A DNA stretch of 64,000 nucleotides from Picochlorum sp. SENEW3. Lineage: Eukaryota. Shown here piece after piece: positions 9,271 through 57,124 of the stretch (position 1 is the stretch's first letter; the number at the start of each line of letters is the position of its first letter). The notes under the pieces were generated by a model. It saw only the letters and a program-made list of their open reading frames with translations, ran no database searches and was not told the origin of the DNA. The stretch spans positions 496,001-560,000 of the forward strand of contig CP120463.1 in NCBI GenBank assembly GCA_034226945.1. Direction: 5' to 3'. Made by a program: the position numbers and the translations under genes.

Positions 9271-9357
9271 TGCATTCCCTTTGGCGGTAGTAGTTTCATT
9301 CTTGTATAGTGTCACAGACTTTTAGCAATGTAAAACAATTCCAATGACAACATCATT

Positions 9358-23412: not shown

Positions 23413-24420
23413 TTAGTGTGCTGGATGAGAAACTTTTAGAATGTTTAGCCAGAAAAGCCATACGAGCATAAAGACTATGAATTCGCAGATTACAATCCAA
23501 GCAAGCCTTATCCGCGATCTATCCCGATGGTATTGGGTTTCGGACATCGTTCTCTTCTCTTGGGTTAAGGTTTCGGCCTCTGCTCCGATCCAAGAATGAC
23601 GAGATGACAAAATCGGGTTTTCATGTTCCAATGCCTCCAGACAGCTGCAAGCGGCCTTTGAAGCAACCTGCAAATACTCTGATGCAACAAAATAGTGATT
23701 TGAGTCAATCACAATGCGTTCAAATGAAGATTGGGTGTGTCGTGTCCACCCCTTCATGTAGCCGTTCGGAATGGTGTTGTCCTTGGCCCCGTCAAATGCC
23801 AAAATAGGACAGGAGAGCGGCGTATTCTCAACTGAGTACTCGTACTGTACAGCCATCATTATATCATTAACTGCCATCGGTGCGACGAGATCATATAAAT
23901 CCTTGGATTGCTTCATCTCCTCAATTCCAGCAAAATGTCCAGCCTCAAATGCATGCAAGACATTTTCCTTTGGGAGTGACCTCCAGTCACGTAGATGCGC
24001 GATGACTTCGTCTTTGATGACCCTAAAATTGCCAAAAAGATAATTTCTCTTTGGATTGTAGATTTGCATGATAACGGATGCATATTTATCTGGAGGAGAA
24101 ACTGCTGCTGGTATGAAAAGAAGCGGCATTTTTCTTCCGCATTTCTGCCGCCTTTGAATCATATCGTAACCAATAATAGCTCCGAGGCACGTTCCAAAAA
24201 TTGCATAAGGCATCTCATCAAGAGGAAGTGTCTCAATCAGATGCTCAGACAAAGCTGGCAATGAATCGATGGGTTCTTCGTTCGATCGCCTTCCGCGGCC
24301 AGGGATCTGAACAGGATACACATCTATGCACGATGGGAAAATTTGGTTCCAGTGAGCAAACAGATTTTCGGCAACTCCACCTGCCCAAGGTAGACAAAAT
24401 AGCCTCATTTTTGCCCGAGA
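23413..24420 (-). other. PKS terminus: TEII-like alpha/beta hydrolase with Cys nucleophile plus C-terminal TM helix
   Basis: RLFCLPWAGG, VQIPGRGRR, AIFGTCLGA (GHSxG position), NHYF; LAWIVICEFIVFMLVWLFWLNIL tail. Confidence 0.85.
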
Positions 24421-27400
24421 AGCTGCCACAGGCGCGTTTGCTGCATTTTTTTCAGCCTCAGCCAAAGTGTTGTGGGCTCCGCCTCCATGATGAAGCAGCA
24501 AATCCATCAGAGAAGCAGGGGTATGCGTGATCAACTCGTATGACTCGACAGTCGAAGTCCCCATCAAGTCATCAATCTTTGCTTTCAAGTCTAGCGATGA
24601 TAGAGATTCTAGACCTTGTTCACCCAGGGGCGTTGACGGGTCAGGGCGGTCGATTTGCAGAACAGATTGGAGAATGCGGTCTATGGAACCTTGGTCAACC
24701 GATTTCCCTCTCAATGCATTGCTCTTGGCTTTTGATCCGTTTTCTTCCAAGTTTGGCTCATATTCTAGAACCGGAGTAATTGTTTGCAGTTCCTCATAAA
24801 TATCTTCTAGTTGATTAGATAAATTGGATCCAATGAGCATCTTGATATTTTTCCAATATGACTGTGTTGCAACCATGTACACTGAAGCATTACCGAATCC
24901 GATCACCCACTGCAAGGCCGAGAGCCCATGGCCAACACTAAGCATACCCAGAGATTTCGCTTCTTCATCCGATGCAGCAAATTTAGCAGCCATTCCTGCA
25001 ATGAAAAATTTTTTTCTAGTTATTTGCGAAACTCAGTCTCAGCAATGTCCACAAAGCACGTACCGATTGATCCCCATGCTCCCCATTGTGTTGATGTACA
25101 TGAAAGACCCTCGACTCGGAGCCTAATCGCGAGATTGTCCATGGCGCTGTTCGCGGCGGAGTACGATGCATGATTCTTATTTCCTAAGAAAGCGGATATC
25201 GAGGAGAAGAAGTTTGCACAAAGCGTTGGTCTTGTTCCACGAAACAGTTTCTCTATTGGCTCGAATTTGCCCGAATGCACCCGCCTGCTGATATTCGGTG
25301 CAGTGTGCGGCATGGTGGCAGCTTGTTGGCTACCCGACGTATGCAGAAACACCATTGAGATTGGCATGTCCCTCCTGCAATTATCATGGTAGAGGTCAGC
25401 GTCCGATGATATTGAACCATCAATCTTTTCAATGCGAGTGAATCCTGCTTTGGTCAGCGCATCTCGTGCATGTCCATTGCTAACTCCACTCCTACTGAAG
25501 AGATAAACATGGTTGGCAAATAAAGCCCTCCCCCAAGTTGCAGTCGCCATTCCCAGTGCCCCAGTTCCTCCTGATACCACCAAAGATGCATTAAAAAGTT
25601 GTATCTTGTCTTTTCTATTTTTTTGTACTGTCCTTTTCACCTTTTTCACGACGGGCAATGTCGAATCGTAAAGCATTTCTCTCTTGCTCTTCTCTGAACT
25701 CTGAATGAGGATATTGCTGCTGAATTTCTGAATCGAAACTGTTGGCATCTCCAGATAAACGTTATTTAAATACCCACTGACAATGCCATATTCTTTACCC
25801 AACCTTTTAGACAGTAGGGGCGTCACTGTATTGAAGTTACTCTCATTAACAATGTTTGAGATGATGAGGGATGATTTGGTTTTCGCTGATGCGATCGCTG
25901 AGAGTGCTTCTGCAAGAAGTTGCTCAATGTTTAAGGCTGGCATTTGGAGGTTTGGCTTAAATGTTTTAGAGTTTCTCGGAATCTCATTGGCTGCATGGCT
26001 TGCACTGTTAACATAGGCCTGATAGCGGTACAGGTTCTCAGGATGGTGCATCCCAGTCATTCGGCGCACCAGTCCTTCAATTCGAGTCAATCTGCCTCGA
26101 TCTTCATCAATAATAATTGAAGTTGTTGACGCCCCACAAAATTTGCTGGTGCGGTCTTGGGGTAAATGTAGAGAAGCGACTTGAGCAGCGCAGTTATCCC
26201 CATTTCCTGACAATGTGCAGACTCCAAGCAGGGAGTACACATCAACTAATAAGTCTGACTGAGAGCTAGACGTAGCAATCTGTGCACATGAGGTGTCTGC
26301 TTCAATCCACAGGCTTACTAGAGTATTTGATCTATTAATATGCTGTTTTCTTTCAGAATTTCTCTGAACAAGCCAAGGGGCCACTGTAGCTTCTGCTAGT
26401 GTTGCCTGCTCATTCACAAGCGAGCAAATTCCGTCCTGTGGGACAAAGCGGGCTTTAAACGACCCTTTAAGACTCAATCCTATATTAAACGCGTTTGTGT
26501 TGTGCAACACAATATCGTGTTGATCGCTCCCTTTGTCCCCCCGCTCAGAAGAATGAAGTGATAATGCTACCGCAACCGCTGATTCAATGACGAATAAGAT
26601 CCCACCATTCGATTGGGCCAAAAAAGATCTCATTTCAACTGATTTTAGTTCACGCATTTCGTATAGAATTCCCTCTGTGTGAGTAATAGAGCTAAACTTC
26701 ACCAAAACTAATGGTAAATGTTTGGCTTCAATTCTGTTGAAGAATTCCCAGGCCTGAAAACAAGGAAATTAAAAATACGTGATTTCTCAAGCATTTAGAC
26801 GCGAAAAAGTTAGAGACCATATACATCCTATATGTGGAACCTACATGGTGTATGTTGAGCCCGCGTTTTTGGTCAACTCTTAATTTGTGTATATGAGAGA
26901 ACATTGCATGAGCATTTATGCCGCTCATGCCAAATGAACTAGTTCCAACCACTCCTGGATCCATTGATACTGCTGAATTTTCTCTATTGATATGATGAGA
27001 ACCGTCCGCTTCTGCCATAGATTGCGATATAAATGGATTCAATCCCCGGAGGTGCTGAACAGGTGGCTTGGTGAGGCATCCAAGTAGTGACAAACCACAC
27101 AAAACTCCATTCAGGCCAGCGTTGCCTTCAGCATGGCCAAGGAATGATTTACTAGCCAGCATGCTCAATACAGAATTCTTCGAAAAAACTCGTAGTAATG
27201 CGCTAACCTCGATGGGATCCCCTAAGGCAGTACCTGTCCCATGGGTAGAAACAGCAGTCACCTCGCTTGTGCTGATAGCTGCTTGATCGCAGGCTGATCT
27301 CAAAAGCTTGACTTGGGCAGAGCCATTGGGCGATGTCAAACTACTACTTCTTCCATCTTGATTCATGCAAATTGAGTCGACGTCTGCCACAATCGGTTTC

Positions 27401-30400
27401 TCGTCGATTGCGCCTCTCTCAATCAACTCCATCAGCAAAACAGTTGAGCCTTCGGCTCGGCCATAGCCATCAGCATTTTGGCTGAATGTTTGGCATCTAC
27501 CCGTGAATGAAAGAGCTTTAAGATGACAAATAGCACTGAAAGTATCTGAATTGAGAATTAGGTTTACACCAGATGCAAAATTGGTACCAGAGCCTTGCAT
27601 CATTAAGGAGTTGCCGGACAAATGGCATGCGACAAGCGAAGAAGAGCACGCAGTGTCACTACAAATGGACGGGCCTGCATGTCATAATATATTTGAATAT
27701 GTTTTAATGTCCAGATTTAGAATTGCTGTGGAGAAAATGTATAGCACAACTCACCATTGAGTCCAAACGTGTAAGACACCCGTCCTGCCATGTACGAAGC
27801 CCCATTGCCAATTATCGCATGAGGTGGAGGTTTGGCGCCTCTCTGGGGCAAACTAGTGAGATATTCATGATACATACAACCTATATAGACACCGCTAGCG
27901 ATAGAGGTGTCAGTCGCAAGTATCAAAGTGGCGTGCTCTTCCAAGAGAATTCTCACTTGAGGATCCAACCAACAAGCTTCTTGATGAGTTATTCGAAAGA
28001 TCTCATCATCAAATTTGAAGACATCCTTGCAAAATGCGGCAAATCGTGTGTATGATAACCCAGAAGCAGTGTTAATCGGATCAAAACAACTCTCAATGTC
28101 CCATCGCTCATACGGCACCTGTGCAATGACATCCTTCTCAGGAAAAATGCTTCTTTTAGGATCTAAGCAATATCCTTCAGCCTCAGGGAGTTTGCCAGCA
28201 ATTGACCTGATAACGATCGACTTCTCCCATAATGAGGGTGTTTCACGTAAGTTCAAGGTCTTGGGGTCCATAATGGCTCCGTGCTCATTCAAAATGTGAG
28301 TGCTGAGTGCTGAAATAGAGGGATGATCAAAGGCTACTGTTGGATTGACATCGATACTTAGAGTCCGTGAAAGAGCATTCGCAAGCTCCATACTTCCTGT
28401 AAAAATATTATTGTTGATTAAATCAAAAGTAAGGATAAACGTTTCTTCAAACGCAATGCAATTTTTCCTTTCAACGCACCAATAGAGTCCAATCCAGCCT
28501 CCATGAAACCCTGATCATCCTCTATTTTTTGGCCTAATATTCCTGCAACCACTCCTCTAACAGATTCCAGAATGAAAGAATTTGAAAATTTATTCATTAC
28601 CACTTTCGTCGATATGCGAACAGTGGGCGCCTCGACTGGACTATCGCGATTCAGATTAATTTCAGTAGGTTGCTGTACCAACGCCCCTACAACTGCATTG
28701 TTGAGACAGGCTTGAGAACCCATGATCGCCATTAGAATCTCAAGACCCATTTGAGGATATATTATATCCATTCCTTGTTTCCTCATTGCATCTAAATGGC
28801 GTTTAGCCATGCCCACACTCCAGGGGCCCCACTCAACAGCCAAAAAGTCCAGTCCTTTATACCTGTTTTCCACGCAAACTTCATTCAGGCACGCGTTCGC
28901 TGCACTGTAGTTTGACTGGCCAATGTTGACAAATGAAGCAGCAATAGATGAAAATATAATTGTAGATTTCTGTGGAAGCATTCCATAAGCCTCGGTAAGG
29001 AATCGGAGACCATTTGATTTTGGTGCCACTACACTTCTCACGTGAAACGGTGCCAATCTGGACAATAGGGAATCATGAACGACTCCAGAGGAAAAAATGA
29101 CTGCTTTTGGTGCAGCATAATTTTGCTCAGATTCCTCGTGATTAGTCTGGTCTCTCTTCGATATTGAGTAGAACTCCAGTGATGGATGCTCTCCTCCGGC
29201 ATAACCACTCCTTCCGAACATGTGTATGCCCTTGAAGCATCCGCGGCCATTTTCAGAGATCCAAATACTGATTAGGGACCCTAATGCACCAGTGCCGCCG
29301 ACTATGTCCCATTCTATCGCAATCGTATTGGGCCTGGCTGCAGTTTCTATGAGCACTTCCTCTTTAAGGCGAGCTACACATCGAGCCATACCGATTTGCA
29401 CGTTGTCATGATCATCTTGGATCATGGAACGATTTAAATCCATGGGTTTCTTTGCAAAATCCTTCTGGTGATTGAAAAATGCGTTCACTCCTATTTCAGC
29501 GGCTGAAGACTTGATTAAGCTAATCTCAGGCAACGTTGAAGTTTGCGAGTTATAATGAGAAGATACATTTCGAGATATTCTCCCCATTAATATGCACTCG
29601 TAGTTCTTTTCTTCCTTCATAATCTGCACTAAAGTCAGTAGATCTGAAATTTCAGAAGAGCTTGATCTATCCAAGGAGTACTTTCGGCATATATCCTTTT
29701 TGCTCTGGAATACAACAGCCAAATCCTTGATGAAATCATTGCTTAACAGCCTACTACATGATTCTTTAACAGTGTACTCGATTTGGTAGAACTTTTTATC
29801 TGGCTTCTTGCACCTGTTGGAGTCGTTAGGTAAGCTTGATGGCCGGAACTGCATCCTCTGGATTTTGAATGGGTCTTGCCGTGTCGAAGTTGCCCCGTAG
29901 TCGCAGTGTACTGGATCCGATGCTTCCATGAAGTTTTGAGCATCTACAGCTCCGTGCACCCACTCAATGCTGTTTAAATGTTTTGATACTAGACTAGCTT
30001 CTAATGCTGTGGGATATCGCAGAACTCCCGGTGACTTGGAAAACCCAGTGCATATCTGCAGAGAGCAGTCAATTTGCGGAGGCATGGACGCAAATCCTCC
30101 ATCTGTTATCTGTTGTGGAGCAATATATCCTATGCAAGATCTTGTGGTATAGTTGGGTTTGAATTCCGCTATTTGACGGGCAGCCAAGTTGACTTGTCTC
30201 CAGGGTTCGATGCGTGAGTTGTACCCATATGAAATGGTGCATGAAAACGCCTTCTGGACCCCACCATTCTGTATCGTTCGGATGGCAAGCATTCCATCGT
30301 TGCTTATTTCAACAAATAATTGATTTTCAGTCAGTGAGTTCAAAATCGTGAACTGATGTGCGAGTGCATTCGTGATCCTAGCACTCTTCTCCTGGTACAG

Positions 30401-33400
30401 GAAAGCATAACAGTCGACTGATGCAACAAACAGTGACGCGAAGGGAAGAATAATTTCTGCATTGATCTGGTGTTGAGAGTGCATGCTCAAGGCATTGTCA
30501 GATATGCTGATCTGTATCTCTATTCCTGCCGAACAGGACAAGGATTTGTAATGCTCGCTAACATGGGCAGGCAGGACCCACAGGCTAATGCGTTTGTAAA
30601 TGACTTGGCTCCGCAATTCTCTTTCCATCTTTCTACTCTGAATATCTGCAGATATAATGATGTTTGCATTGGTTCCCTGAAATGCAAATGCACTCACGCA
30701 TGTCGCGATATTCTGGCCTGTTATTGGATTTCCAGATTTCTCCCTGGTGAGAAAAGGTGCAAGTCTTGAACCCAGGGAAACGTGGGGATTTAAGCTTTTC
30801 AAATACTGAATAGGTACATTTTCAATTTTGGAAGATATATACTCAGCAGCAAGACAACCAATATGGCCTGATGCTGGCTCTGCGTGCCCAAAGTTCGTCT
30901 TCGATGCTGATATTGTGGGCAAGGAATATTTCTCAAACACACGTTGGAGAGCACCGATTTCAATTGGGTCCCCCAATGCTGTCCCGGTACCATGGAGGAT
31001 AGCATTAGATAAATCAGAGGGGCTCATTCCTGAATTTATGACGTTCGTGCGTATCAAGCTATGCTGAGCGGTGCCATTTGGCGCAGTCAAGGACGATGAT
31101 CTGCCATCCTGGTTTACGTTGATTGCAAGTATCACCGAGCAATTGGAACTGTGAGCAGTGCTCAGAACTGAAGCAATGCAAGCTTCAGATCTTCCATACC
31201 CATCAGCGCTTGAATCTAAAGCTTTACATCTGCCATCCATTGCCAACATTCCGGATTTCTGAAGTGCCACTGTAGTGTCGCAAGATAATATCATGCTCAC
31301 AGAATCAGCGACAGATGCGACATTTTTTGTCTTAACATAGTCTACACATAGTGAAATTGCCACCAATGCTGACGAGCATGCCGTGTCAACACTCATGGAT
31401 GGTCCAGTGCACCCGAACATGTACGAAAGCCTTCCAGAAGCTGCGCTAAGACTAGTACCAGTACTAGCATAGGAATTGCCTGCTCCATTCATGTATCGCA
31501 TTATCAGTTGCTTATATTCCATATGCTGAATACCAACGTAGAATCCAGATTGTAAATTTGTATTGAATTGAGGCATGGACTGGATGCATCTGTAAGTGAT
31601 CTCTAGTAAGCGCCTGTGCTGAGGGTCCATGCACTGTCCCTCCATGGCAGACACTCTGAATAGCTCCGCATCAAATTGGTCAACGTGATTTAGCCATCCA
31701 GAGAACCGCACTAGCCCTCCCTGAAACAAATTTTAAACCCATAATCGAGCAGATGAAAATAGATTTCAATCATACATACATGGTATCGTACCTCGTATAC
31801 TTCTGAATCCCATCTGTTTGGGGGGACAATTTGTGCATAGTCACTGAAGATTGGATGTGGCTTGGGAGTATCGGCTTCATGAATCATACTCAACGATCCG
31901 GGGCTAGGGTCTGCAATCATATCTAGTTGCTCCTTTTGGGGAATGATATGATCAGCATTAGGAGTTTGGCAAATGAATTTTACCATGGCATCCACAGAGG
32001 GGTAGTCATATATTAATGTTGCTTCCAGCTGCATTCCTGTTTTGGAAGAAAGACTACGGGAAATTTCAACCGCAGTCAATGAGTCGATATCCTGAAAATT
32101 AATTTCTGGATCTTCGTTTTCTAAGGACGAAAGAATTACGTCACGGACTAATTCCTTCACCAGGGCTGGAGACTTTTGAACATATTCTACGGGTTCATAT
32201 CTCTCCTCATGCTGAGATGTAGCTCTGGTGCCGGAGCCATGGTCGAATTCGTCCATTAGTCTCCATTGTCCTCTAAGCGAAAATGCCGACTTCAATAAAT
32301 TGAGATCGAATCTTAAATGCCCTGTAATGGGCGCGCATGACGCAAGGTATAGCCTCCAAATCTCCATGGGAGCAAATGGGCTGATCCCCATTGTCGCAAA
32401 GTGGTTTGCGTACTCTTTGGCAAGACCTTCACTCAAAAATGGTCCCAATCGAAGGCTATAAGATTTCAGACCAAAATCATACCTGATACGAGATAAATGA
32501 TCAAGCATAGAGTTGGCACAGGAATAATATGCACCACCTATTTGACTCCAGATCGATGAAATAGAAGAAAGATATACTTCCGAATATGTCTGACGCCTCA
32601 GAGAGAAATCCACAGAGTTCACCTGCGGTTATTTTGAAATCCAGAAATATATTATCAGAATGACCATCCCTTTGACCATCAGGTGGGCGCATTACGTACC
32701 TTGTGCGAGACTATTTTCCGAAACGTGGTGGTATCCAGTCCACCAATGAGATCGTTTGCACTTATTCCAGTCGCGAAAACTCGCTGCTCAAAGTGAGGAA
32801 ATTCCTCCCTTAATTGTTCCTCGAGGCTGCCATTATCTATATGTAATGTAGAATCCGACAGAATAATCGAAACAATAGAATTAACTTTGCGGAAAGCATG
32901 CACCCTATTTTCTGGCAGGTATCCTTTGCTTGAGGTCACCAACGTGTGCTGACATTCTAGCGACAGTACAGCGCTTTTGATATACTCAAATCCAATACCC
33001 TGAATTGTGTATAATATAAAATGAGAGATTATCTAGAATTAAGGAAAATAGAATCATATCATAGCACACAGTCCTTACCTTCGTTCCACCATACACTAGA
33101 ATGGATGTGGGAACTTTCGGAGCATGCCGAGGCTTATGTCGTCCATTTTGTATCCTAAGTACATAGCACCTCTGGCCGTTCAGCTGGAATTCGTACTCTC
33201 CTGTGCATGTCAACAGATGCCTCAATGTTTCCAGTCCAAGTGCATGTGTGAGCCCTTCCGAGTTGACCAGCTTGATCGAAGGGGCAAACAGTTGTCTTGA
33301 CTCCAGAAAAATTGTCTTTGATAGAGATAATGTCGCCTCATACTGTTTTATAGTCCTCTGATGCGGTTCATGGGGATGGCTTGGGATGATGGAGAGAGGT

Positions 33401-48400: not shown

Positions 48401-51400
48401 CGCGACAGTTTGATGGACGTTGCCTGGCATGGACGCCCATGAAAGAAGTTGGTACCGCAAGATTTGTTTCTCCAAACCTGAAAATAGACAATGCTGATGC
48501 GGTATGCATGGAGCTATCTGCATAGAAGGGATCTATAGAGTGCGATTGCCTAGCTGAGTTGGCGGACGATATTCTGGCAATATTTGCGGTGGCAATTTCT
48601 TCTTTCCTCATGTCATAGATGCAAGGGGCGAATATCAATGAACAAAAATTCATATGCCGTCGTTTTGTAGGATATCGAGACATCCGCAGTGGTAGAACCT
48701 CGGAGGTGTCGGAGGAACAGCGCTGTCCTGTTCCTGACAAAATATTTAATCGTCCCTGCACTAGACTGAAGGAACATTGGATGTCCAAGTCAGCCACAGA
48801 GCTCAAAAGAAGCGGTGAAGTAATAACGGCTGATATTGCAGACTTTCTTTGCTTGTTATCCTCTATACCCAAGTCAATGCAGCTAGAGCAAATATCCAGA
48901 AACCCTGTCCCAGGAAATATTGGCTGTCCTCGCACTGTATGCTGGTATAAATCGGGTACTTTTGAAAGCGAGATTTGGAACAAGACAACATCGGTAGATA
49001 TCGACAATACTTTTCTTGTTAATGTTCTGTGGATCGCCGGAAGCCAGTATTGGTCTCTAACAAAAGGAAGACGCCTAGAATTAAAGGGTCCGCCCCTACC
49101 TGCCTGGCAAGAGAACACAGCGTGTGCGTTGACGCCGCTCATTCCGAAAGAGCTCGTGGAGGCAAAGCCAGTCTCAGTTGCAATGCTACCAGAAAGTTCC
49201 CTTGGGAACGACTGCGACCCAGCACTGTCATTTCCCCCTTCATTCGTTAACAGTTTTGAGATGTGAGGGTTTAGGCCGATTAAATGTGTTATGGGTGCAA
49301 CGGACATTCCTTTCAAGTGGGACAACGCCAATATACCTCCAGCAAGTCCTGCGCTCCCCTCCGTATGCCCAACCATCGACTTGGAGGACAGAATATATTT
49401 TGGAGGAGCGTGTTCAACCCCATAGCCCTTCATGATTGCGCCAACTTCAATGGGGTCTCCCAAAGATGTCCCAGTTCCATGAGATGAGATGGATGAAATA
49501 TCACCTCCTTGAAGTGATGCTTCGCGAAGAGTTTGTCTAATAAGAGCCGCCTGCGAAAGGCCATTTGGAGCAGTTAATCCACTTGATCTACCTGAGTGAT
49601 TGAATGAAGTTCCACGAATAATGCCTATGCTGCTATTGCTTGGTTTCTTGTCTCTGCCAAGAGCCATTGTAGTAACCCCTTCACCTCTACCGTAGCCATT
49701 AGCTACGGAAGAGAAGGCTTTGCACCTTCCATCTGGGGAAAGCGCATTAAGCTGACCTATTGCATTCATTGTATCCGAGAATGTTATCGTAAAAACCCCT
49801 GCAACCACTGAGCTCTGACAGTCCCGATCCTGAAGTGCTCTCCTCCCCAAGTGCATTGCGACAAGCGATGAAGAGCAAGCAGTATGCGTCGACACACAAG
49901 GTCCAACAAGGGAGAAAGAGTACGAAATCCTCCCTATGAGAAAGTCCATTCCATTTCCTGTTGTTATTGATGGCTGGATTGGAACTCCCTCTCGGGAAAG
50001 ATACTGTATGTATTCCATGTGCATGACACCAACGAACCTGCAACGCAATACACCGAGAGGACTCAATCGCAACACCAGATGAACGCCAATCATCAATATC
50101 ACTCTCTTACAATCCTGTGGAATTTCTCGAGGATGAATTCCAGTCAGTTTCGACCAAGACGCCCAAGGTCTCTTCGAGCAAAAGCCTCCCCTGGGGATCT
50201 AGTCCTTTGGCTTCGGAAGGTGCAATTTTGAACATCTCTGGATCGAAAGCTTCCAGATTTTCAAAATACCGTCCCATATAGTACGAATTACCACCTGAAT
50301 AGGGAGATGCACTTAGTTGATTGATACACGCTGTCTTTGAAGGTAATACAAGAGAGTATGCACATACCTTCAAAAAGGTGCATCCTTTGTTCCCTGTCCC
50401 ACCGGTTCAGCGGGACAGTCCTCACATTATCAACTTCTGATGGTGAGGCACAATTAAAGTTGTACAAAGTTCGCATTGCATTGTTAGGGAAAGAGTATGA
50501 TACAGAGAGTATTTCGGTGTTCACCATGTCCCCCGAGCTTTCCCCAGGAACCAATGAAATTATGCCAACACCATTAGGTTCCGGAGCGAAACTAGATGCA
50601 ATTCCATCTGCTAAAGCACGTGCGTCTGCATAGTCAAAAAATTGTGATACAGGTATATCAAAATCAAACCTTGCACGAATCTTTTCAGACAATGCCTGTA
50701 AATTCATTGAGTCCAGTCCGGCCGAGAACATAGGTTGATCTGGGGCGATGCTCAATCCCAAGGACTCTATGATGTCTTGTAGCTCTTGTAGAACTTCAAA
50801 CGCTGTCATCACTTTTTTTCTGGGTTTGGGTACACCATGGATGGGCTGTTTCTCAATCACAATTCTCAAGATGTCTGGGATTGTCTTCATCGAACTACCA
50901 ATCTTTATCCAATCAAAAGTGTTGATCATCAATGTTGAGGCCCTCGGGCCTTCTTTGATATCATTTGCTATTGCCAGTAAGAGATTGTTCATCTCATCAA
51001 GCGCATTGTCGGGCTGTATCAGGGCTAGCCCCATCTGAGACATTTTCTGAACGAACCCCTTGTCCTCAGCTGCCATACCCCTTCCTCCCCAATTGCCCCA
51101 CTGAACAGCAATGCTTGGGATTCCGATCATACTTCCATAATCTCCCCATTCATCTAGTGCCCCATTGGCGGCAGCATATACTGACTGTCCGTGCACACCA
51201 CTAAAAGCAGCGATTGACGAGAACATCTGCAACGCATCAATTGGTAGAGCAGTGGACAATCCATAGATTATGCTAGCTCCCCTCACTTTCCCTGCAAAAA
51301 CATTTCGAATACTTTGAACAGTTATATTTGGAATTAATTTGGAGTCTAACTGCCCTCCAGCATGCATTACACCTGTCACTGGGCTATCCCTGGAAGCATA

Positions 51401-54400
51401 AAAAACCCCAGCAAGGTCTTCTCTCTTGGACGAATCGGCCATTGACAAAATGATTCTAGAACAAAACAGTTCGTGCATGAAATTGAACTTTTCGGAAGGC
51501 TTAAATTTTCCAGTTCTTCCAAGGAAAACTCCGGAACTAAGGTTGAAGACGGCTATCCATAGGGAGATCAGACTTCCTATGGCTCCCATTCCACCGGTTA
51601 CCACAAGTTCTTGACGAGGCCTCAGAAACTCTTTGGCTCGATGTGAATAGAACATATCAGTGTTTGGGACCAGTACAGGGTGCTTGATACAATTCCCTTC
51701 CACCCAAGACTCGAATTTAGTCCCGTTTACATTGTGTTGGTATCCGTTTTGACTTTTGGCTTGGCCTATCTGAGATGAAATGTACCCTGCTGTATCGGGA
51801 GCCTCGTTGCGCAGCACGCGTAGGAAAGACTCAAACTCTCTCGACGGTCCGATCATTTTAAATCCATGTAGATAAAACGAACATGCGTTGGCCTGTGCGA
51901 AAATAGGCAGGGAAAAGGACAAGCCTTCCAATTTTTTGCCAGTTTTCTGCCAAGCCACCTGGAGAGCTTCGCTTAACCAGGAAGTTGCGCTCTGCTCTGA
52001 CTCAGGCCGCCTCTTGATCTGAAATTCTGTCTCAAACTGTAAAGTCAAATTCTGGAATCTATGACCACCAATTTTTTGATGACTATCGGGTAGTTCTGTC
52101 TGATATGATATGGAGTAGCGGTCTGTCAACCGACCTTCGATTTGCCTCTCCTGCACCAATTCTTTGGACTCTAAATCCGATATTTTGTGGTCTAACATAT
52201 TTTTTGAGTTTTGTTTTATTCCCCAGTGATCTGTGTGGATTATGTGTTTGCCAAACGTCTTGAATACAGATGCATACATTGCTTGCGATTTTGGTTCGTC
52301 ATTTAGCATCAACCTCTTCACTGATACAACAGCTCTTGGCCTCTGAGTAGCTCCTTTGGTATATGATGTGGCTGGTCCTAGATGAATTGAGCAGTCTAAA
52401 GATGCAGGATAACGCTCAGACTTTTCACAGATGATTTGTCCGAAGCTAGCTCTGTGGGGTTGCAACCATGCATCTCTGATTTGTAGAGCACTCTCAATTT
52501 TTGAAAGTCTGCCTTCTTCTGGCCTTTGCTCCCGTATTATTGCGTTCACTTTAGATGAATAGTGGTTGATTCTCTGCATTTGGTTCAGAGAGGAGAGATG
52601 GACCAATCCGGAGGATACATTAATTTCAAACCTCAACAACAGAAAGGCCTCCAGCAGCACTGGATTCATAATCACGGCATCCCCGAGCACAAGGCGGGAA
52701 CTGGCAGCACTTAACATAGATGCAACAACATCTTTGGATAGAGAAAACATTCCTGAACCTGGCATTATAGAGCGTGATCCAACAACATGGTCCCACATGT
52801 ATGAGTCCTCAGGCCTTAACATGCTTTCCACTACCGTCGTGGATCGCTGAGGGGGATATCCTCCAAAAACGAAGCGATTGGTTAGTATCACGGGCCAGTT
52901 GATTTTTCTATAAAGTGAAGTATCGGTACCCGGAAGCATACTCTCCTCTATGCCTTCTAGTGCGATGCAGGTATTGGTTCCACTCATTCCGTAGGAACTC
53001 ACGGTGCTGATGTTGACATTTCTGCAAAGACTGCCTCCAGATTGCCTTTGAGGCAGAAATTTCTTCCCTCGATGGTTGAAAATATTTTGAATAAATGGGT
53101 TCAAATGCCTCAATGAGTGGAATCGAAGGTTGCGGAGTTGCAAAATTGATGAGAGTGCCCCCGCTATTCCATGAGCACCAGCAGTTCCCTCCGTATGTCC
53201 AATTGCAGATTTCAGCGAGACTACACATCAGGAAGAATTCAACGAAGTTGACTAACATGTATACATATATTCAGCACATATGACATACCCAGATATTTGA
53301 CTGAGGCTATCGAGTCGTACACCGTGTCAAGTGCCCCAATCTCAATTGGGTCACCCAAGGCAGTCCCGGTTCCATGCAGGTTGATGGACAAAATATCGTC
53401 TCTAGCCACCATCGACTCTTGTAAAAGCTTGAATATCAATGAAGCTTGAGAAGGTCCATTGGGGGCGGTAAGAGAACTGCTTCTTCCGTCTTGATTGCAC
53501 TCGCATCCTTTGACATACCCAATAATGTCCGATGGGTGACTCTCTGCTTTTCCGACCACGATGGCAACACAGCCCTCCCCTCTGCCGTAACCATCAGCCG
53601 TGGAGTCTAAAGTTTTGCATCTTCCGCTCACAGAAAGTGAGCCTAAGACCGCCAGATTTAGCGTCGTCGTGGGAAGAAGCATGAGATTTGTTCCTCCGGA
53701 CACGCCATGCCCAATAGTCCCACGGCGCAATCCATTGATTGCCAGGTATACTGCAACAAGCGACGAAGAACAGGCTGTGTCGATCCCAATACATGGTCCC
53801 TTGAAGTTAAATGTGTAAGGAATTATTCCTGATGCGAAGTTCAATCCACTGCCTGTTAGATGGGCAAGGTCTGGTGCAAGAACAGTATTGCTCAGAAACC
53901 CAGGAAACTCATTCCAGACACAGCCGACATATGTTCCAACAGGATAGATAGATGAATCTAGCGAAATAGTCCTTTTGATTGCAAGTAAGGTCGATTCGAG
54001 CATTAATTTTGCCTGAGGGTCAAGCCACAGTGAGTCCCGTGCAGAGATCTTTAGGCTTTCACTATCAAAGCAATCAATGTGCTGTATCCAGCAGCCATGG
54101 GTCAGCAGGCTTTCACTATTCGCTATTTTTGACACATACTCCTCAGAAATATGAAATCTGTCTACCGGAGCTCTGTTCGTATGCTCTTTATCATCCGCAA
54201 GGAACGCCAGTATACCCGGCTCGAGAAGAGGCCCAGGGCTCCTCGAGTAACCACCAGACGTACCCTCAACGCTTAATATTGTAAAACCTGAGGATGAGGC
54301 AGCTGGATGAATTAATAAACTTTTATCATTCGTAAACGTGCCAATTTGTCGTAACTTTTGGACTATAAATCCAGTGAGCGAAGCCACATCAGCGTAATCA

Positions 54401-56923
54401 AATGCTATTGTGTCTGGCAGCTGTAGGCTGAAAGCATCCTGCAGTGCCTGCTTGAGCTCGATTGACGTAATCGAGTCCAGACCAATGTCAGCAAAGTAGA
54501 GGTCTGATATGTTACCATCAACTTCCAGAACGTTATGAATTGTCTTCTCCACAATATTTTGTACCTCTTCGTCACTGAAAGCAACATTGTCATTGTGCTC
54601 AAAGTTCTGATCATATACATCAGATTCCTTCACGTGCGATGCCATACGTCCGCTTTCAAGATATTGTATGCTATGAATAGATGTTTCAAATCCCAAGTAA
54701 AGGTCTCTCTTCGTGCGGGAGCATGTGGTTCTCCTCATGGGGGCGGCTGCATCTGAATGGTTCAGCATATCTGATGACAGCGTCCTGGTTGCATCAACCG
54801 ATGCAGACAAACCCCTCGATTGGAGTGAGACTTCAGAAAAGAGTTCTTTCCACATTTCCGAGCCAATACATAGGCCTATTGGATCCAAATCGAGGAGATC
54901 TGGGTGAGACAAGTTTTTTGATGGAATCATCAATCCTTGCCATCTATCGTGGCCCTCACACCTGCTGCTGCTCTGTGTCAAATGTTTCCCAATACATCCA
55001 GCAGCCACAACTTCCGCATTTACTAGGCTGTCTGATTTAATCTCCATTAAAAACGATGGACGTATACAGCTGAACTTGGCGCAGATTTCAGTGTTCAACG
55101 CGCCTGATACACTGCCTAGAACAAGGTCCAACAGAGAGGTTTTGATCTGCAGAGCATGGGTGCAGATCTTGGAGGCAAGGCATGCGAGTAAGACAGAAGG
55201 CAATGTGGGCGTGTTGTGAATCGATTGACTCAGAATCCAAGATGAATTTGAATCGATTCTTCCAATGAAAGCAAGATTTCCATGTCCTGTTGTTGGCTGC
55301 ATGGAAACGCGCGCAAATATGCTGATGTGCAATGCCATCCACCAGCATGGCTCCATTTTCCAAGCGGGGCCAATGCCCTTTCGTTGTTCTCCGTCTAAGC
55401 TTTCATGAATTCTTTCCACAATAATATGAGAATTTGTTCCCTGAAACGCGAATGAACTGATAGATGCTGCCGAAACGCTGTTGTGCACAGCAGAAAAGCA
55501 GCCTGGGCTTCTGAGAAAGCCAAAGACAGCCTTTTGATTCGGTCTCGCTTCCAGCACCCTGATCACATACGGGTTTATCTGAACAAGATTCTTGAAGTCA
55601 AGTCCAATATTAAATTGCAACCGCTCCATTGCATGAAACAGCCCGACCGCACCAGCTGCAGGTTCAGCGTGCAGTACGGTGGCCTTTGCTGCCTGTACTT
55701 CAAGGGTCATGTCCTTGGCAAAAACGGAGGTCGCAGCACCAATTTCGATAGGATCACCTAGTGCAGTTCCTGTACCATGCATTTCAAGAATTTCAATTCC
55801 CTCAGGCATAACTTTCCCAGCAATTAGGGCGCCCCTAATGACTTCTTGCTGCGCTGGGCCATTTGGAGCAGTGAGACTTGAACTTCTACCATCTTGCCCA
55901 ACAGCAGTTCCTGAGATATATACACTTGAACTGCTGCCCTTAGTATCTTTCTTTTTCATCAAGTGCACAATGCAGCTCTCAGCTCTACCATATCCATCTG
56001 CTCTGCCATCCAAAGTCTTACATCTTCCATCAGCTGAGAGCATGCTGGCTGCTTTCAGAACCCACGAAGTCTCGTGACTGATAAGTAGATTTACCCCAGA
56101 AGCAATTGAGAAATTCCAACCTTGAGACATTGAGCTAGTGATGGACAAGTGTATTCCAACCAATGATGAGGAACACGCTGTATCAATGCTTGAGGATGGT
56201 CCTCTCAAATTGAATGTGTAGGACACCCTCCCAGACAAGACACTGAGCGTTCCGGATGTCGCCATAAGGGCATTCTTCTCCAGATGTAACAGATTCAAGA
56301 AATATTCATTATATGACACGCCCACTGTTATGGAACAGGATGAAGGGTCGAGTAGACCCTGGGCATCGTGCAGACATGCTCCAACTGACTGCAGCAATAA
56401 TCTTTGTTGTGGATCCATATACGAAGCCTCTTTCCTGCTAATACCGAACGCATCTTTATCAAACAAATAAATATCGCTAATAAAGGCTCCAAAGCGCTGT
56501 GGCATGGTGTTTCCTGATATGCGCTCAGCAAACCCAATATCCCATCGTTGGAGTGGTACCTGAACACGCATCACCCAGTCCATTAACATATTCGTGGATG
56601 CAAACAACCAGACCATCACCGACGTACCATATTGCAAAAGTCACCATCTATGGAAAAGGGTTTTTGCCACTCAGATGATAGAATCTCGGCCTTGATATGC
56701 GAATCATGGGAAGGTATATTTGGAGACATACAAATCGGCATCTGCAGGAATGGTACGTTGATCAATACACGATCATACAACAAAGAAACATGATGGGACG
56801 TACGTCATACAAGGACTCATCGTCAGATGAATAGATTTCTGCGTATTCTTCCGGCAAAAGGCGAAAACCGACCGCTTTTGAAGTGCCCGACTCCCCGTGA
56901 ATGTCCAGCTCGCGGTTTTCCAT
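23413..56923 (-). CDS. Giant AT-less type I modular polyketide synthase (9 modules + Cys-type TE + TM anchor), multi-exon, roughly 10,500 aa
   Basis: Consecutive minus-strand ORFs joined in frame by short GT-AG introns (e.g. GSIG|MAAK at ~25060/24995, GGTK|GIG at ~33078/33000, AFQ|GTN at ~44663/44576); nine TACSS/HGTGT KS sets, nine ACP Ser motifs, KR GGxGxxG/YxxxN, DH HxxxGxxxxP, one ER; no AT motifs seen. A few junctions (~26700-26800, ~44380-44460) were not resolved. Confidence 0.9.
24500..28280 (-). other. PKS module 9: KS9-(no recognisable DH)-KR-ACP9
   Basis: DTACSS/STHGTGT/HAEGNAG; KR GGTGALG, HASYSAAN; ACP GLESL. Confidence 0.78.
28290..31960 (-). other. PKS module 8: KS8-DH-KR-ACP8 (ACP split by an intron)
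   Basis: DTACSS/ILHGTGT/HAEPASG; DH QHQINAEIILP, DCSLQ; KR GGTGALG, VHD, QSNYSAAN; ACP GLDSIG|SMEL. Confidence 0.82.
31970..35890 (-). other. PKS module 7: KS7-(DH0)-KR(A-like)-ACP7
   Basis: DTACSS/SLHGTGT/HTEGAAG; KR GGTK|GIG, SSISSIWSQIGGAYY; ACP DIDSL. Confidence 0.8.
35900..39680 (-). other. PKS module 6: KS6-DH-KR(B-like)-ACP6
   Basis: DTACSS/SCHGTGT/HTEGAAG; DH DHNVQGRSLVP; KR GGTDGIG, LNDD, QSNYASAN; ACP GLDSL. Confidence 0.85.
39690..42080 (-). other. PKS module 5: KS5-DH-ACP5 (no KR)
   Basis: DTACSS/QLHGTGT/HLEPASG; DH EHIVRDKIVFP, DAASH; ACP GVDSL. Confidence 0.82.
42090..45890 (-). other. PKS module 4: KS4-(DH0)-KR(A-like)-ACP4
   Basis: DTACSS/EMHGTGT/HCETAAG; KR GGTRGLG, no LDD, SSISGIWSQSGGSHY (Trp motif); ACP GLDSL. 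Confidence 0.8.
45900..50580 (-). other. PKS module 3: KS3-DH-ER-KR-ACP3 (only fully reducing module)
   Basis: HTACSS/SSHGTGT/HTEGSAG; DH QHTVRGQPIFP; ER GLNFRDVL, HAGSGALG; KR GGAGDLG, QLNYCAAN; ACP GVDSL. Confidence 0.87.
50590..54340 (-). other. PKS module 2: KS2-DH-KR(B-like)-ACP2
   Basis: DTACSS/NLHGTGT/HTEGTAG; DH DHVVGSRSIMP; KR GGMGAIG, GQLDS, QSVYAAAN; ACP GLDSM. Confidence 0.85.
54350..56923 (-). other. PKS module 1: KS1-(DH0)-ACP1; no loading domain
   Basis: DTACSS, EMHGTGT, HAEPAAG, SSFAFQGTN; DH-like SQSIHNTPTLP lacks the catalytic His; ACP GLDSI. Confidence 0.8.
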
Positions 56924-57108
56924 CTTGGATGGCAAAAGACCTGTCACGGATATAAAGTTTTCTCCTTGATTAATATTCCAGTAAGAAATATATCACGGAA
57001 CTCGTTGTTCCTCAGATGTATCACGGGCTTTCTGTGGACACGTGCCCAGTCCAGGGTACTTGTCACTGTGGGTTCAACGAACAAACTTCCTTGCAAAAAA
57101 ACTGGATA

Positions 57109-57124
57109 AAGGAAATATTTCCTT
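57109..57124. repeat. Perfect 16-bp palindrome AAGGAAATATTTCCTT upstream of the PKS start
   Basis: Seen directly; ~190 nt upstream of the putative PKS ATG. Confidence 0.85.

What the first reader, a model, noticed from the sequence alone, without database searches (positions are those of the whole stretch)
23413..56923. 33-kb single-gene, AT-less nine-module PKS embedded among housekeeping genes of a tiny algal genome
Seen: KS1-DH0-ACP / KS-DH-KR-ACP / KS-DH-ER-KR-ACP / KS-DH0-KR-ACP / KS-DH-ACP / KS-DH-KR-ACP / KS-DH0-KR-ACP / KS-DH-KR-ACP / KS-KR-ACP / TE-TM. No AT, adenylation or loading domain was recognised, and there are no tailoring genes nearby (flanked by VPS18 and uL2m). Known: chlorophytes carry giant AT-less type I PKSs; Chlamydomonas PKS1 is needed for zygospore wall maturation. 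Inference: a >1 MDa assembly line making a partly unsaturated, hydroxylated long acyl chain, needing a trans-acting AT and a starter supplied from elsewhere. Its retention in such a streamlined genome suggests an important role, such as a wall polymer precursor or a cryptic sexual stage.
Basis: partly seen in the sequence, partly recalled or inferred. Interest (0 to 1): 0.85.

Follow-up and report, generated by a model that had tools for sequence, protein, structure and literature searches.

The report
Giant AT-less polyketide synthase gene, Picochlorum
This is a real, expressed 33-kb gene of a tiny green alga (Picochlorum) that encodes one 1.2-MDa, nine-module polyketide assembly line without built-in acyltransferases: a known kind of green-algal enzyme whose product is still unknown.

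Summary
The minus strand from 56923 (ATG) to 23413 (stop) reads as one frame of 10,767 aa (1.175 MDa) after 16 short GT-AG introns are removed. Most introns cut through domains, so the pieces belong to one gene.

The domain order is KS-?-ACP / KS-DH-KR-ACP / KS-DH-ER-KR-ACP / KS-?-KR-ACP / KS-DH-ACP / KS-DH-KR-ACP / KS-?-KR-ACP / KS-DH-KR-ACP / KS-?-KR-ACP-TE-TM. I found no acyltransferase, ligase or methyltransferase domain in the gene, and no acyltransferase in the 64-kb window.

The organism is a Picochlorum close to P. renovo. That genome's annotation splits the ortholog into six co-regulated models that respond to salinity and are expressed in vegetative cells.

AT-less giant PKSs are already described as typical of chlorophytes, so this is a new member of a known kind. 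Three particulars stand out:
- There is no N-terminal ligase.
- The last module is reducing.
- The terminus is a type-II-like thioesterase with Cys in place of the Ser nucleophile, followed by a C-terminal membrane helix. This arrangement recurs in the closest relatives.

Product, trans-AT and starter remain untested.

The parts
23413..56923 (-). Whole CDS of the PKS gene: 17 exons, 16 introns, 10,767 aa, 1.175 MDa
   Evidence: No in-frame stop remains after splicing.
56560..56923 (-). N-terminal 78-aa leader on exons 1 (56923-56804) and 2 (56741-56628), with introns 56803-56742 and 56627-56560
   Evidence: Read from the sequence. Both introns appear as joints in one spliced contig of run X18, which reaches 56930 (record 15). 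No Pfam hit and no hit to the gene's own ACP HMM at E<=100.
54316..56556 (-). Module 1: KS1 (55618-56556), unassigned stretch X1 (54574-55431), ACP1 (54316-54573)
   Evidence: KS1 keeps Cys/His/His. X1 scores 0.27% probability against the DH profile. The single-sequence fold had pLDDT 29.6 and is unusable.
50552..54207 (-). Module 2: KS2, DH2, KR2, ACP2. Intron 53288-53221 lies inside KS2.
   Evidence: DH2 has His and Asp. KR2 has an LxD-type Asp.
45861..50274 (-). Module 3: KS3, DH3, ER3, KR3, ACP3. Introns 50367-50295 and 50110-50038 split the N-terminus of KS3.
42051..45731 (-). Module 4: KS4, unassigned X4 (43618-44454), KR4, ACP4. Intron 44663-44575 sits at the end of KS4 and intron 42640-42568 at the end of KR4.
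   Evidence: X4 scores 0.05% probability against the DH profile and has no usable Atlas hit.
39651..41906 (-). Module 5: KS5, DH5, ACP5 (no KR)
   Evidence: DH5 has the motif HIVRDKIVFP plus DAASH. There is no room for a KR between DH5 and ACP5.
35860..39393 (-). Module 6: KS6, DH6, KR6, ACP6. It is preceded by intron 39479-39394 at the ACP5/KS6 boundary.
31924..35763 (-). Module 7: KS7, unassigned X7 (33562-34434), KR7, ACP7. The probable in-frame intron 35501-35436 lies in KS7. Introns 33078-33000 and 32699-32623 lie inside KR7.
   Evidence: The KR7 motifs read continuously across both junctions. X7 scores 0.43% probability alone and 1.2% with one ortholog.
28260..31705 (-). Module 8: KS8, DH8, KR8, ACP8. 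Intron 31791-31721 comes before KS8 and intron 28479-28397 lies inside ACP8.
   Evidence: DH8 has the motif HQINAEIILP plus DCSLQ.
24448..28223 (-). Module 9: KS9, unassigned X9 (26034-26735), KR9, ACP9. Intron 27754-27675 lies inside KS9, intron 26844-26754 after KS9 and intron 25063-24996 after KR9.
   Evidence: X9 scores 0.51% probability alone and 0.06% with four orthologs.
23638..24405 (-). C-terminal thioesterase domain of the type II thioesterase kind, with a Cys-Asp-His triad (GTCLG in place of GxSxG)
   Evidence: Pfam PF00975 at E 3e-16. RifR is the best solved relative (E 2e-23), and the Cys aligns with the Ser of its GHSMG. The model has pLDDT 89.3. Foldseek matches ClbQ, RedJ and RifR at E about 1e-19.
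23434..23514 (-). C-terminal hydrophobic helix, a putative membrane anchor
   Evidence: Highest Kyte-Doolittle 19-mer of the protein, 2.42. It is part of a long helix, residues 288-340 of the TE model. It recurs in 14 of the 17 closest representatives.

Best explanation
A single nuclear gene of a Picochlorum green alga encodes a 10,767-aa non-iterative, highly reducing type I polyketide synthase of the chlorophyte AT-less ('trans-AT') kind.

Shown:
- There are nine modules, each with an intact KS (Cys/His/His) and an ACP serine.
- Module by module, the reductive sets are: none / DH+KR / DH+ER+KR / KR / DH only / DH+KR / KR / DH+KR / KR.
- The protein ends in a type-II-like thioesterase with a Cys nucleophile, followed by a C-terminal hydrophobic helix.
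- The gene is transcribed and spliced.

Inferred:
- A free-standing acyltransferase encoded elsewhere malonylates all nine ACPs.
- KS1 is primed directly, or from a separate ligase/carrier protein or upstream PKS, with an acyl starter.
- Nine colinear extensions add 18 carbons. Counting from the carboxyl end, this gives 3-OH, a 4-ene, 7-OH, an 8-ene, 11-oxo, 13-OH, saturated C14-C15, a 16-ene and 19-oxo.
- The Cys-thioesterase, held at a membrane by the tail helix, releases the chain into or at that membrane. The product would be a lipid-like compound with a conserved physiological role.
For: One gene:
- 16 GT-AG introns of 62-91 nt restore one frame of 32.3 kb.
- Most introns lie inside KS, KR or ACP domains, and the motifs read through them.
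- Two of the 8 introns in the laid stretch appear as joints in a spliced contig of run X18.
- The six consecutive P. renovo fragments NNA_007538-007543 share logFC values of -2.0 to -3.0.

Architecture.

Catalytic residues:
- 9 of 9 KS have Cys/His/His.
- 9 of 9 ACP have the serine.
- 7 of 7 KR have the glycine-rich motif and Lys/Ser/Tyr. The LDD-position Asp is present in KR2, 3, 6 and 8, which are exactly the modules with both a DH and a KR, and absent in KR4 and KR9.
- DH His and Asp are present in modules 2, 3, 5, 6 and 8.

No AT.

Green-algal affiliation: 9 of 9 KS fall in a 44-row clade (support 89) made only of green-algal and unnamed AT-less rows. Bacterial cis-AT and bacterial-type AT-less rows lie apart.

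Conservation:
- P0122 (6,735 aa) is colinear with model aa 4286-10788 at 36% identity, and P0002 with aa 4229-7296 at 38%.
- KS5 to KS9 each pair with the ortholog's KS in the same position, at support 96-100.

Terminus.

The kind is in print: PMC4661987 (abstract, section 7) and PMC7073580 (passages).
Against: - No acyltransferase partner, ligase or phosphopantetheinyl transferase was identified, because the genome is not held.
- Six of the 8 introns in the laid stretch were seen neither spliced nor unspliced in RNA.
- Run X18 is only guessed to be RNA.
- Colinearity of algal PKSs has never been shown chemically, and no product is known for this enzyme class (PMC7073580 passage).
- Module 5 (DH without KR) and module 1 (no reductive domain) do not give a simple prediction. 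A trans-acting KR or a different role for DH5 would change the product.
- The roughly 280-aa unassigned stretches in modules 1, 4, 7 and 9 may hold functions that I cannot see.
- Membrane insertion of the tail helix is inferred from hydrophobicity alone.
Confidence: 0.75

Rival explanations
1. The protein is not self-sufficient. It would be the downstream subunit of a larger split assembly line. A separate ligase-ACP or another PKS polypeptide, encoded on another chromosome, would hand a pre-built chain to KS1, and the acidic 78-aa N-terminal leader would serve as a docking element.
For: - KS1 is a normal condensing KS with no loading domain before it.
- The Chlamydomonas and Chlorella megasynthases start with a ligase or adenylation domain, which this gene lacks (PMC4661987 figure legend passage; PMC7073580 passage).
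- PMC7073580 states that in some chlorophytes the megasynthase is split over polypeptides and contigs.
- P. renovo has further PKS-like models on Contig10F, Contig02F and Contig12F, and they shift the same way with salinity.
Against: - No partner was seen here.
- The leader matches no family.
- The other loci could be independent PKSs.
- This reading overlaps with the best explanation rather than excluding it.
Confidence: 0.3
2. The gene is the Picochlorum ortholog of Chlamydomonas PKS1 and builds a resting-cell or zygote wall component, used only in a cryptic sexual or dormant stage.
For: - PKS1 is reported as needed for zygospore maturation. I know this only from citations of Heimerl 2018 in PMC7073580 and PMC12633428. 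The paper itself is not held.
- The P. renovo paper reports meiotic genes among the differentially expressed genes (PMC6811619 passage).
Against: - The architecture differs from the described conserved megasynthase, which has an N-terminal adenylation domain, 10-11 modules and two non-reducing last modules (PMC7073580 passage). Here there is no ligase, there are 9 modules, and the last module has a KR.
- Transcripts of all six ortholog fragments are present in vegetative cultures at logCPM 1.0-3.2.
- No Chlamydomonas sequence was available for testing orthology.
Confidence: 0.12
3. The locus is several separate genes, as annotated in P. renovo, or a decaying pseudogene.
For: - The P. renovo annotation has six models over the orthologous locus.
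- The raw frame is broken 15 times.
Against: - Every break is bridged by a canonical short intron that keeps the frame.
- The introns bisect domains.
- All 9 KS, 9 ACP and 7 KR active-site motifs are intact.
- Three of the 'introns' in the P. renovo model delete conserved KS or ACP sequence and so look like annotation errors.
- The fragments are co-regulated.
- The frame is kept in strains that differ by in-frame 3-nt indels (table 4).
Confidence: 0.03

Closest known systems
Chlorophyte multimodular AT-less ('trans-AT') type I PKSs: Chlorella variabilis CvaPKS1/2 at 1.2 MDa, the Ostreococcus and Micromonas PKSs, and Chlamydomonas PKS1 (Shelest et al. 2015, PMC4661987; O'Neill 2020, PMC7073580)
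   Same: - It is a single giant polypeptide with many KS-(DH/ER/KR)-ACP modules, no integrated AT, no methyltransferase and a C-terminal TE.
- It contains stretches of unknown function, like those marked '?' in the published Chlamydomonas scheme.
- All of its KS domains fall in a green-algal clade.
   Different: - It has no N-terminal ligase or adenylation domain.
- It has 9 modules rather than 10-12.
- Its last module is reducing (KR), whereas the last two modules described for Chlamydomonas are non-reducing.
- Picochlorum was not among the species in either survey: 'Picochlorum' occurs 0 times in PMC4661987.
- The Cys nucleophile and tail helix are not mentioned in the passages I read. I could not read Heimerl 2018.
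Bacterial trans-AT PKSs (bacillaene PksJ/PksL and similar)
   Same: Both have AT-less modules. In both, a short post-KS flanking region stands where an AT would be. Here that region gives weak PF16197 hits after 8 of the 9 KS domains, and the gap from KS to DH is only about 85 aa.
   Different: - The KS domains do not group with the bacterial-type AT-less rows in the tree.
- No KS lacks the His of HGTGT.
- No beta-branching or methyltransferase domains were found.
- In PDB searches KS6 is about equally similar to cis-AT and trans-AT KS domains.
- The link between KS clade and incoming substrate, known for bacterial trans-AT systems (recalled), did not hold across green-algal proteins.
Type II thioesterases of PKS/NRPS pathways (RifR, RedJ, ClbQ, BorB, TesA)
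   Same: The alpha/beta-hydrolase fold is the same, and the Asp and His of the triad are kept.
   Different: - Here the domain is fused to the end of the synthase as the releasing domain.
- The nucleophile is Cys instead of Ser.
- A membrane helix follows it.
Cys-nucleophile thioesterases ObiF and SulM (beta-lactone and beta-lactam forming; PMC6668435 and PMC11298585, search listing and abstracts only)
   Same: Both have Cys in the nucleophile position. ObiF1 is a weak sequence hit (E 6e-4) and a fold hit (rank 28). The chain that arrives here is a beta-hydroxy thioester.
   Different: - Those are NRPS type I TE domains acting on amino-acid-derived substrates.
- The relationship is distant.
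- Other Cys-TE relatives follow fully reduced or enoyl-forming last modules, so Cys does not by itself imply lactone formation.

Membership tests
Chlorophyte AT-less multimodular type I PKS | Several KS...ACP modules on one polypeptide | tested here: met
   9 KS and 9 ACP in one spliced frame.
Chlorophyte AT-less multimodular type I PKS | No integrated acyltransferase domain | tested here: met
   No PF00698 hit at E<=1 in 38 exon windows. The AT HMM gave a best E of 1.2 in 1,249 six-frame pieces, against controls at E<=1e-187. The gaps from KS to DH are only about 85 aa.
Chlorophyte AT-less multimodular type I PKS | No methyltransferase domain (stated as typical in PMC4661987 section 7) | tested here: met
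   No methyltransferase family among the hits.
Chlorophyte AT-less multimodular type I PKS | KS domains group with green-algal PKS KS domains | tested here: met
   FastTree of 96 KS rows: 9 of 9 fall in a 44-row clade (SH-like support 89) together with Bathycoccus, Monoraphidium, Tetraselmis and unnamed AT-less rows. No Chlamydomonas, Chlorella or Coccomyxa rows were available. The maximum-likelihood run did not finish.
Chlorophyte AT-less multimodular type I PKS | A free-standing AT encoded elsewhere that serves all modules | not testable with these tools
   No genome is held for the window. There is no AT in the 64-kb window. No fabD or transacylase annotation appears among the differentially expressed P. 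renovo genes (that list holds only genes that changed).
Conserved chlorophyte megasynthase of the Chlamydomonas PKS1 type | N-terminal adenylation or ligase domain | tested here: not met
   No PF00501 hit. The protein starts with a 78-aa leader and then KS1. The next gene upstream is ribosomal protein L2, 373 nt away.
Conserved chlorophyte megasynthase of the Chlamydomonas PKS1 type | 10-11 modules, with the last two lacking reductive domains (PMC7073580 passage) | tested here: not met
   There are 9 modules. Modules 8 and 9 carry DH+KR and KR.
Bacterial trans-AT PKS | KS domains in the bacterial trans-AT clades, with non-elongating KS0, beta-branching or MT domains common | tested here: not met
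   The KS domains lie apart from the bacterial-type AT-less rows. All 9 KS have Cys/His/His. There are no such accessory domains.
cis-AT modular PKS | An AT in every module | tested here: not met
Type II thioesterase family (PF00975) | alpha/beta-hydrolase fold of the RifR/RedJ type | tested here: met
   (target-normalised TM-score 0.7-0.83).
Type II thioesterase family (PF00975) | Ser nucleophile in GxSxG | tested here: not met
   GTCLG: the Cys aligns with the Ser of RifR's GHSMG. Of the 150 best representatives, 66 have Cys and 74 have Ser at this position.
   hhalign probability is 0.05-1.2% for X1, X4, X7 and X9, against 92% for the DH8 control. There is no Pfam hit. The X1 fold was unusable at pLDDT 29.6. 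Only the size fits a DH.

The most novel reading that the evidence does not exclude
The conserved ending of this algal PKS clade is a beta-hydroxy-forming last module, then a Cys-nucleophile thioesterase, then a tail-anchor helix. This ending could be a membrane-bound off-loading device that does not simply hydrolyse the chain. It would instead transfer the long oxygenated chain onto an acceptor in the membrane, by ester linkage into an algaenan- or cutin-like polymer or a lipid head group, or close it to a lactone. That would make the enzyme a vegetative-cell builder of a protective surface layer, tuned by salinity.
Probability: 0.15. Interest if true: 0.7.

Novelty: new member of a known kind. 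Interest (0 to 1): 0.4.

Why it matters
The giant AT-less PKSs of green algae are widespread, but none has a known product. The one functional study concerns the Chlamydomonas zygospore.

Picochlorum grows fast, has a genome of about 13-14 Mb, and can be engineered in both its nuclear and chloroplast genomes (PMC6811619 section heading and passage). It expresses this gene in ordinary vegetative cultures. A correct full-length model therefore makes knockout plus lipidomics a practical route to the product. The model offered here replaces the six fragments of the P. renovo annotation, three of whose introns delete conserved sequence.

The Cys-thioesterase with a membrane tail, shared by the nearest relatives, points to where and how the chain is released, and it can be tested. 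Otherwise the finding is an expected member of a described class.

Tried and rejected
- **Whole-genome search for a trans-AT, ligase or partner PKS.** No genome is held and there are no earlier notes on this genome.
- **The 'DH0' regions as decayed DH domains.**
  - Single sequences and ortholog-supported profiles show no similarity to the DH profile.
  - The ESM Atlas gave no usable hit for X4.
  - The single-sequence AlphaFold model of X1 had pLDDT 29.6, so it was not searched.
  - The label is therefore neither supported nor excluded.
- **The N-terminal leader as an ACP.** There was no hit to the gene's own ACP HMM at E<=100.
- **KS subclades as predictors of the upstream beta-carbon state, as in bacterial trans-AT PKSs.**
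  - Within this gene the split fits 8 of 8. KS2, 3, 6, 7 and 9 follow keto- or enoyl-forming modules. KS4, 5 and 8 follow hydroxy-forming or saturating modules.
  - In the other green-algal proteins I counted at least 5 contradictions, in P0007, P0020, P0040 and P0089. I dropped the idea.
- **Other in-frame, stop-free introns.** Only the one at 35501-35436 stood out. The next candidates lie in conserved domain cores or are kept in the P. renovo protein.
- **Maximum-likelihood tree.** It did not finish within the time limit, so FastTree was used.
- **RNA evidence for the other six introns of the laid stretch.** No joints were listed, and contigs cannot show absence. Run X20, an oligo-dT RNA library from sediment, covered 9 of 30 bins with 15 contigs. 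The tool warns that this does not show transcription.
- **The joint 49481 to 55847.** It has a 26-nt side and appears in runs X9 and X18. I treat it as sequence from another locus or organism, because the two places share no repeat longer than 7 nt.
- **Heimerl 2018.** The paper could not be read.

Full report
**What is in the sequence**

The minus strand between 23413 and 56923 holds a chain of long open frames that change phase 15 times. Every break is bridged by a short intron with GT at its start and AG at its end. The donors resemble GTAYGT or GTGNGT, the acceptors are YAG, and the introns have 28-49% G+C.

Two of the breaks needed extra small exons. KS3's N-terminus lies on a 184-nt exon between introns 50367-50295 and 50110-50038. 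The gene starts with two small exons, 56923-56804 and 56741-56628.

With 15 introns removed, the CDS is 32,370 nt and has no internal stop. A 16th intron, in frame and free of stops (35501-35436, 66 nt), is probable for three reasons:
- It was the best candidate in a scan with splice matrices trained on the other 15 introns (score 16.2).
- It is an insertion relative to the other eight KS domains.
- The P. renovo protein lacks exactly these 22 residues.

The final model has 17 exons, 10,767 aa and 1.175 MDa.

**Is it one gene?**

Most introns lie inside domains: within KS2, KS3 (two), the end of KS4, the end of KR4, KS7, KR7 (two), ACP8 and KS9. The family motifs read continuously across the chosen junctions. 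For example, GGTK|GIGF and SHK|VNSV in KR7 read through.

I laid contigs of four public runs on 37401-57400. Run X18, which the tool only guesses to be RNA, holds a 303-nt contig that skips both 5' introns at the predicted borders and reaches 56930, 7 nt upstream of the ATG. That accounts for 2 of the 8 predicted introns in the laid stretch. For the other six, no joint was listed, and contigs cannot show absence.

Runs X9 and X17 behave as DNA of related strains and cover all 30 bins. They differ from the window by many substitutions and by in-frame 3-nt indels only (tables 3 and 4).

In P. renovo the orthologous locus is annotated as six consecutive models, NNA_007538 to NNA_007543. NNA_007538 is 'GrsT-like', which is the TE. 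All six have logFC -2.0 to -3.0, where positive means more transcripts at 35 g/L, and logCPM 1.0-3.2. I saw these rows in supplementary file 3 of PMC6811619. Shared regulation of neighbouring fragments is what a single transcript would give.

**Domains and catalytic residues**

Pfam was run on 38 in-frame windows of the exons at E<=1. HMMs built from the gene's own domains were run as well. Both give the same order:
- Module 1: KS1-X1-ACP
- Module 2: KS2-DH-KR-ACP
- Module 3: KS3-DH-ER-KR-ACP
- Module 4: KS4-X4-KR-ACP
- Module 5: KS5-DH-ACP
- Module 6: KS6-DH-KR-ACP
- Module 7: KS7-X7-KR-ACP
- Module 8: KS8-DH-KR-ACP
- Module 9: KS9-X9-KR-ACP-TE, followed by a hydrophobic tail

The motif readings below rest on recalled textbook motifs (C/H/H for KS, HxxxGxxxxP and DxxxQ/H for DH, GGxGxxG, K/S/Y and LDD for KR, GxDS for ACP).
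- All nine KS domains keep the Cys of TACSS, the His of HGTGT and the second His. Nothing marks a decarboxylating or non-elongating KS.
- All nine ACPs keep the serine. ACP9 reads LESL rather than LDSL.
- All seven KRs keep the glycine-rich motif and the Lys/Ser/Tyr residues.
- The Asp at the LDD position is present in KR2, KR3, KR6 and KR8, which are exactly the modules with both a DH and a KR. It is absent in KR4 and KR9. KR7 is ambiguous. This internal consistency speaks for a working, colinear line.
- DH2, DH3, DH5, DH6 and DH8 keep the His and the Asp. In DH5 the Gly of the motif is replaced by Asp, and in DH8 by Ala.

KS pairwise identities are 27-40%, so the modules are old and not recent duplicates.

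**The 'DH0' regions**

That is the size a DH would have, given the spacing in the DH-bearing modules. The tests gave no support for a DH:
- None of them has a Pfam hit.
- Against a profile of the five DH domains, hhalign gives probabilities of 0.27, 0.05, 0.43 and 0.51%.
- With orthologs added, X7 (2 sequences) reaches 1.2% and X9 (5 sequences) 0.06%. DH8 with its orthologs scores 92% (E 6e-7) against the other DH domains.
- The Atlas search gave no usable hit for X4.
- A single-sequence fold of X1 was unusable at pLDDT 29.6.

The published Chlamydomonas scheme also marks '?' domains of unknown function (PMC7073580 figure legend). I therefore call these stretches unassigned.

**No acyltransferase, ligase or methyltransferase**

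None of the 38 windows hit PF00698, PF00501 or a methyltransferase family at E<=1. The gap between the end of KS and the start of DH is about 85 aa in modules 2, 3, 5 and 6, which leaves no room for an AT.

An HMM built from five AT domains of database hits found nothing in 1,249 six-frame pieces of the entire 64-kb window (best E 1.2). It scored E<=1e-187 on three AT-bearing controls and gave no hit on two AT-less relatives.

The neighbouring genes are housekeeping genes: adaptin, an RRM protein, a SacI-domain phosphatase, FGAR amidotransferase, a RETICULATA-related protein, aldose epimerase, Vps18, ribosomal protein L2, SBDS, P5C reductase, an SRP54-type GTPase and a kinase. None is a tailoring or loading enzyme.

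**Organism and relatives**

The best database hit is eukprot jgi/Picre1/32194/NNA_007540.t1 of Picochlorum renovo. It maps to model residues 3252-7950 with 57 mismatches in 4,568 aligned positions. The window is therefore a Picochlorum close to, but not identical with, that strain.

Three gaps in the P. renovo model remove conserved KS4, ACP6 and KS7 sequence and look like annotation errors.

Unnamed metagenome proteins are colinear orthologs:
- P0122 (6,735 aa) aligns in one piece with model residues 4286-10788 at 36% identity.
- P0005 aligns with 6517-10788 at 35%.
- P0002 aligns with 4229-7296 at 38%.

I built a FastTree of 96 KS domains. The rows came from this gene and from 23 proteins that I picked among the 120 listed hits and the cluster members.
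- All nine KS domains fall in a 44-row clade (support 89). That clade holds only Bathycoccus, Monoraphidium, Tetraselmis, one eukprot protein and unnamed AT-less proteins.
- The clade is separate from 14 actinomycete and myxobacterial cis-AT rows, 27 bacterial-type AT-less rows, and the dinoflagellate and second eukprot rows.
- KS5 to KS9 each pair with the KS in the same position in P0122 and P0002, at support 96-100. The module order therefore predates the split of these organisms.

**The terminus**

The TE belongs to the type II thioesterase family.
- RifR is the best solved relative (E 2e-23).
- An AlphaFold model built with 39 relatives has pLDDT 89.3.
- Foldseek ranks ClbQ, RedJ, RifR, BorB and TesA first, at E 1e-19 to 1e-15 and target-normalised TM-scores of 0.7-0.83.

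The nucleophile position reads GTCLG. The Cys aligns with the Ser of RifR's GHSMG, and the Asp and His of the triad are kept.

About 40 residues after the domain comes the only strongly hydrophobic segment of the protein. It forms part of a long predicted helix.

I searched 1.84 billion representatives with ACP9-TE-tail. This gave 41 hits at E<=1e-30.
- Among the 17 closest hits, 14 have FGTCLGA and 3 do not cover the site.
- Of those 17, 14 end in a hydrophobic tail. Two of the three exceptions are truncated about 50 residues after the nucleophile.
- Among all 150 listed hits, 66 have Cys, 74 Ser and 3 Gly, and 7 are not aligned at the site.

A second Cys group (FGHC[LM]GA) sits at the end of cis-AT proteins of the form KS-AT-(DH-ER)-KR-ACP-TE-TE, without a tail helix. 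I scanned 5 of these, and all 5 showed this architecture.

**How it most likely works**

The following is inference. A free-standing AT loads malonyl units on the nine ACPs. KS1 receives an acyl starter, either directly or from a separate protein. Nine colinear extensions follow.

Counting from the carboxyl end, the domains predict 3-OH, a 4-ene, 7-OH, an 8-ene, 11-oxo, 13-OH, saturated C14-C15, a 16-ene and 19-oxo, and then the starter's chain. Modules 1 and 5 are the weak points, because a trans-acting KR would change them. The tail-anchored Cys-TE then releases the chain at a membrane.

The colinear conservation at 35-38% identity, the membrane tail, the vegetative expression that responds to salt, and the absence of tailoring genes all fit a lipid-like or surface compound with a physiological role better than a lineage-specific toxin. 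None of this is shown.

**What is known**

- Shelest et al. 2015 (PMC4661987; abstract, section 7 and further passages read) report that MDa-sized, multimodular PKSs without integrated AT predominate in chlorophytes. Their examples include two 1.2-MDa enzymes in Chlorella. Picochlorum was not in their set.
- O'Neill 2020 (PMC7073580, passages read) describes a conserved chlorophyte megasynthase with an N-terminal adenylation domain, 10-11 modules and two non-reducing last modules, whose product has not been isolated.
- The P. renovo paper (PMC6811619, passages and supplement rows read) lists 'ppsA, ppsC, pks1, pks15' as salt-responsive genes. Three of these names belong to fragments of this gene's ortholog.
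- PMC6141220 (passages) reports an expanded PKS family in P. costavermella.
- PMC12366059 (passages) merely scores 'polyketide' clusters in Picochlorum.
- My searches listed no paper that describes this gene's architecture, or a Cys-TE with a membrane tail in algal PKSs.
- Heimerl 2018 is not held and may bear on that point. I saw no supplements of PMC4661987.

**Verdict**

It is a new member of a known kind, with a corrected full-length gene model and a conserved, unusual release end as the modest additions.

Noticed in passing
window 23413-56923, compared with P0001: The P. renovo annotation cuts the ortholog into six gene models. Within NNA_007540 it removes three stretches that are conserved KS4, ACP6 and KS7 sequence (model aa 3759-3779, 6789-6853 and 6862-6886). 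Published names such as 'ppsA', 'ppsC' and 'pks1' in that species are pieces of one gene.
   Followed up: partly
window 49441-49883 and 55847-55872: Runs X9, X17 and X18 hold contigs that leave the window sequence at 49441 and 49883 with the same loose-end letters. A joint from 49481 to 55847 has depth 600 in X18. The two places share no repeat longer than 7 nt, so the contigs probably come from another KS-bearing locus or another organism that is abundant in those runs.
   Followed up: partly
window 50835: All four laid runs carry an extra CAT behind this base. It is an in-frame one-codon difference in the KR2-ACP2 linker. Other 3-nt indels at 38295, 50057, 57095 and 57268 occur in some runs. 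The indels listed are all multiples of three, including the two upstream of the ATG.
   Followed up: no
proteins P0142, P0146, P0155, P0156, P0160: A separate group of PKS termini has Cys at the TE nucleophile (FGHC[LM]GA). They are cis-AT proteins of the form KS-AT-(DH-ER)-KR-ACP followed by two thioesterase-like stretches, with no tail helix. Of the 150 best representatives, 66 have Cys at this position, so Cys-TEs of this family are common and, as far as I saw, little discussed.
   Followed up: partly
KS domains of the gene: The nine KS domains split into two green-algal subclades that match the predicted beta-carbon state of the incoming chain in 8 of 8 cases. The rule fails in at least 5 cases in other green-algal proteins, so the match is probably chance or local.
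   Followed up: yes
P. renovo Contig10F, Contig02F and Contig12F (supplement rows): Further PKS-like gene models (NNA_004484, 004485, 004487, 001254, 005608) exist at three other loci in P. renovo. All are lower at 35 g/L salt, like this gene. One of them may be the partner or the PKS1 ortholog.
   Followed up: no
window 1738-3867 (-) and 9358-11290 (-): A 709-aa ORF has no Pfam family. A SacI-domain gene is split over two overlapping frames, presumably by another short intron.
   Followed up: no
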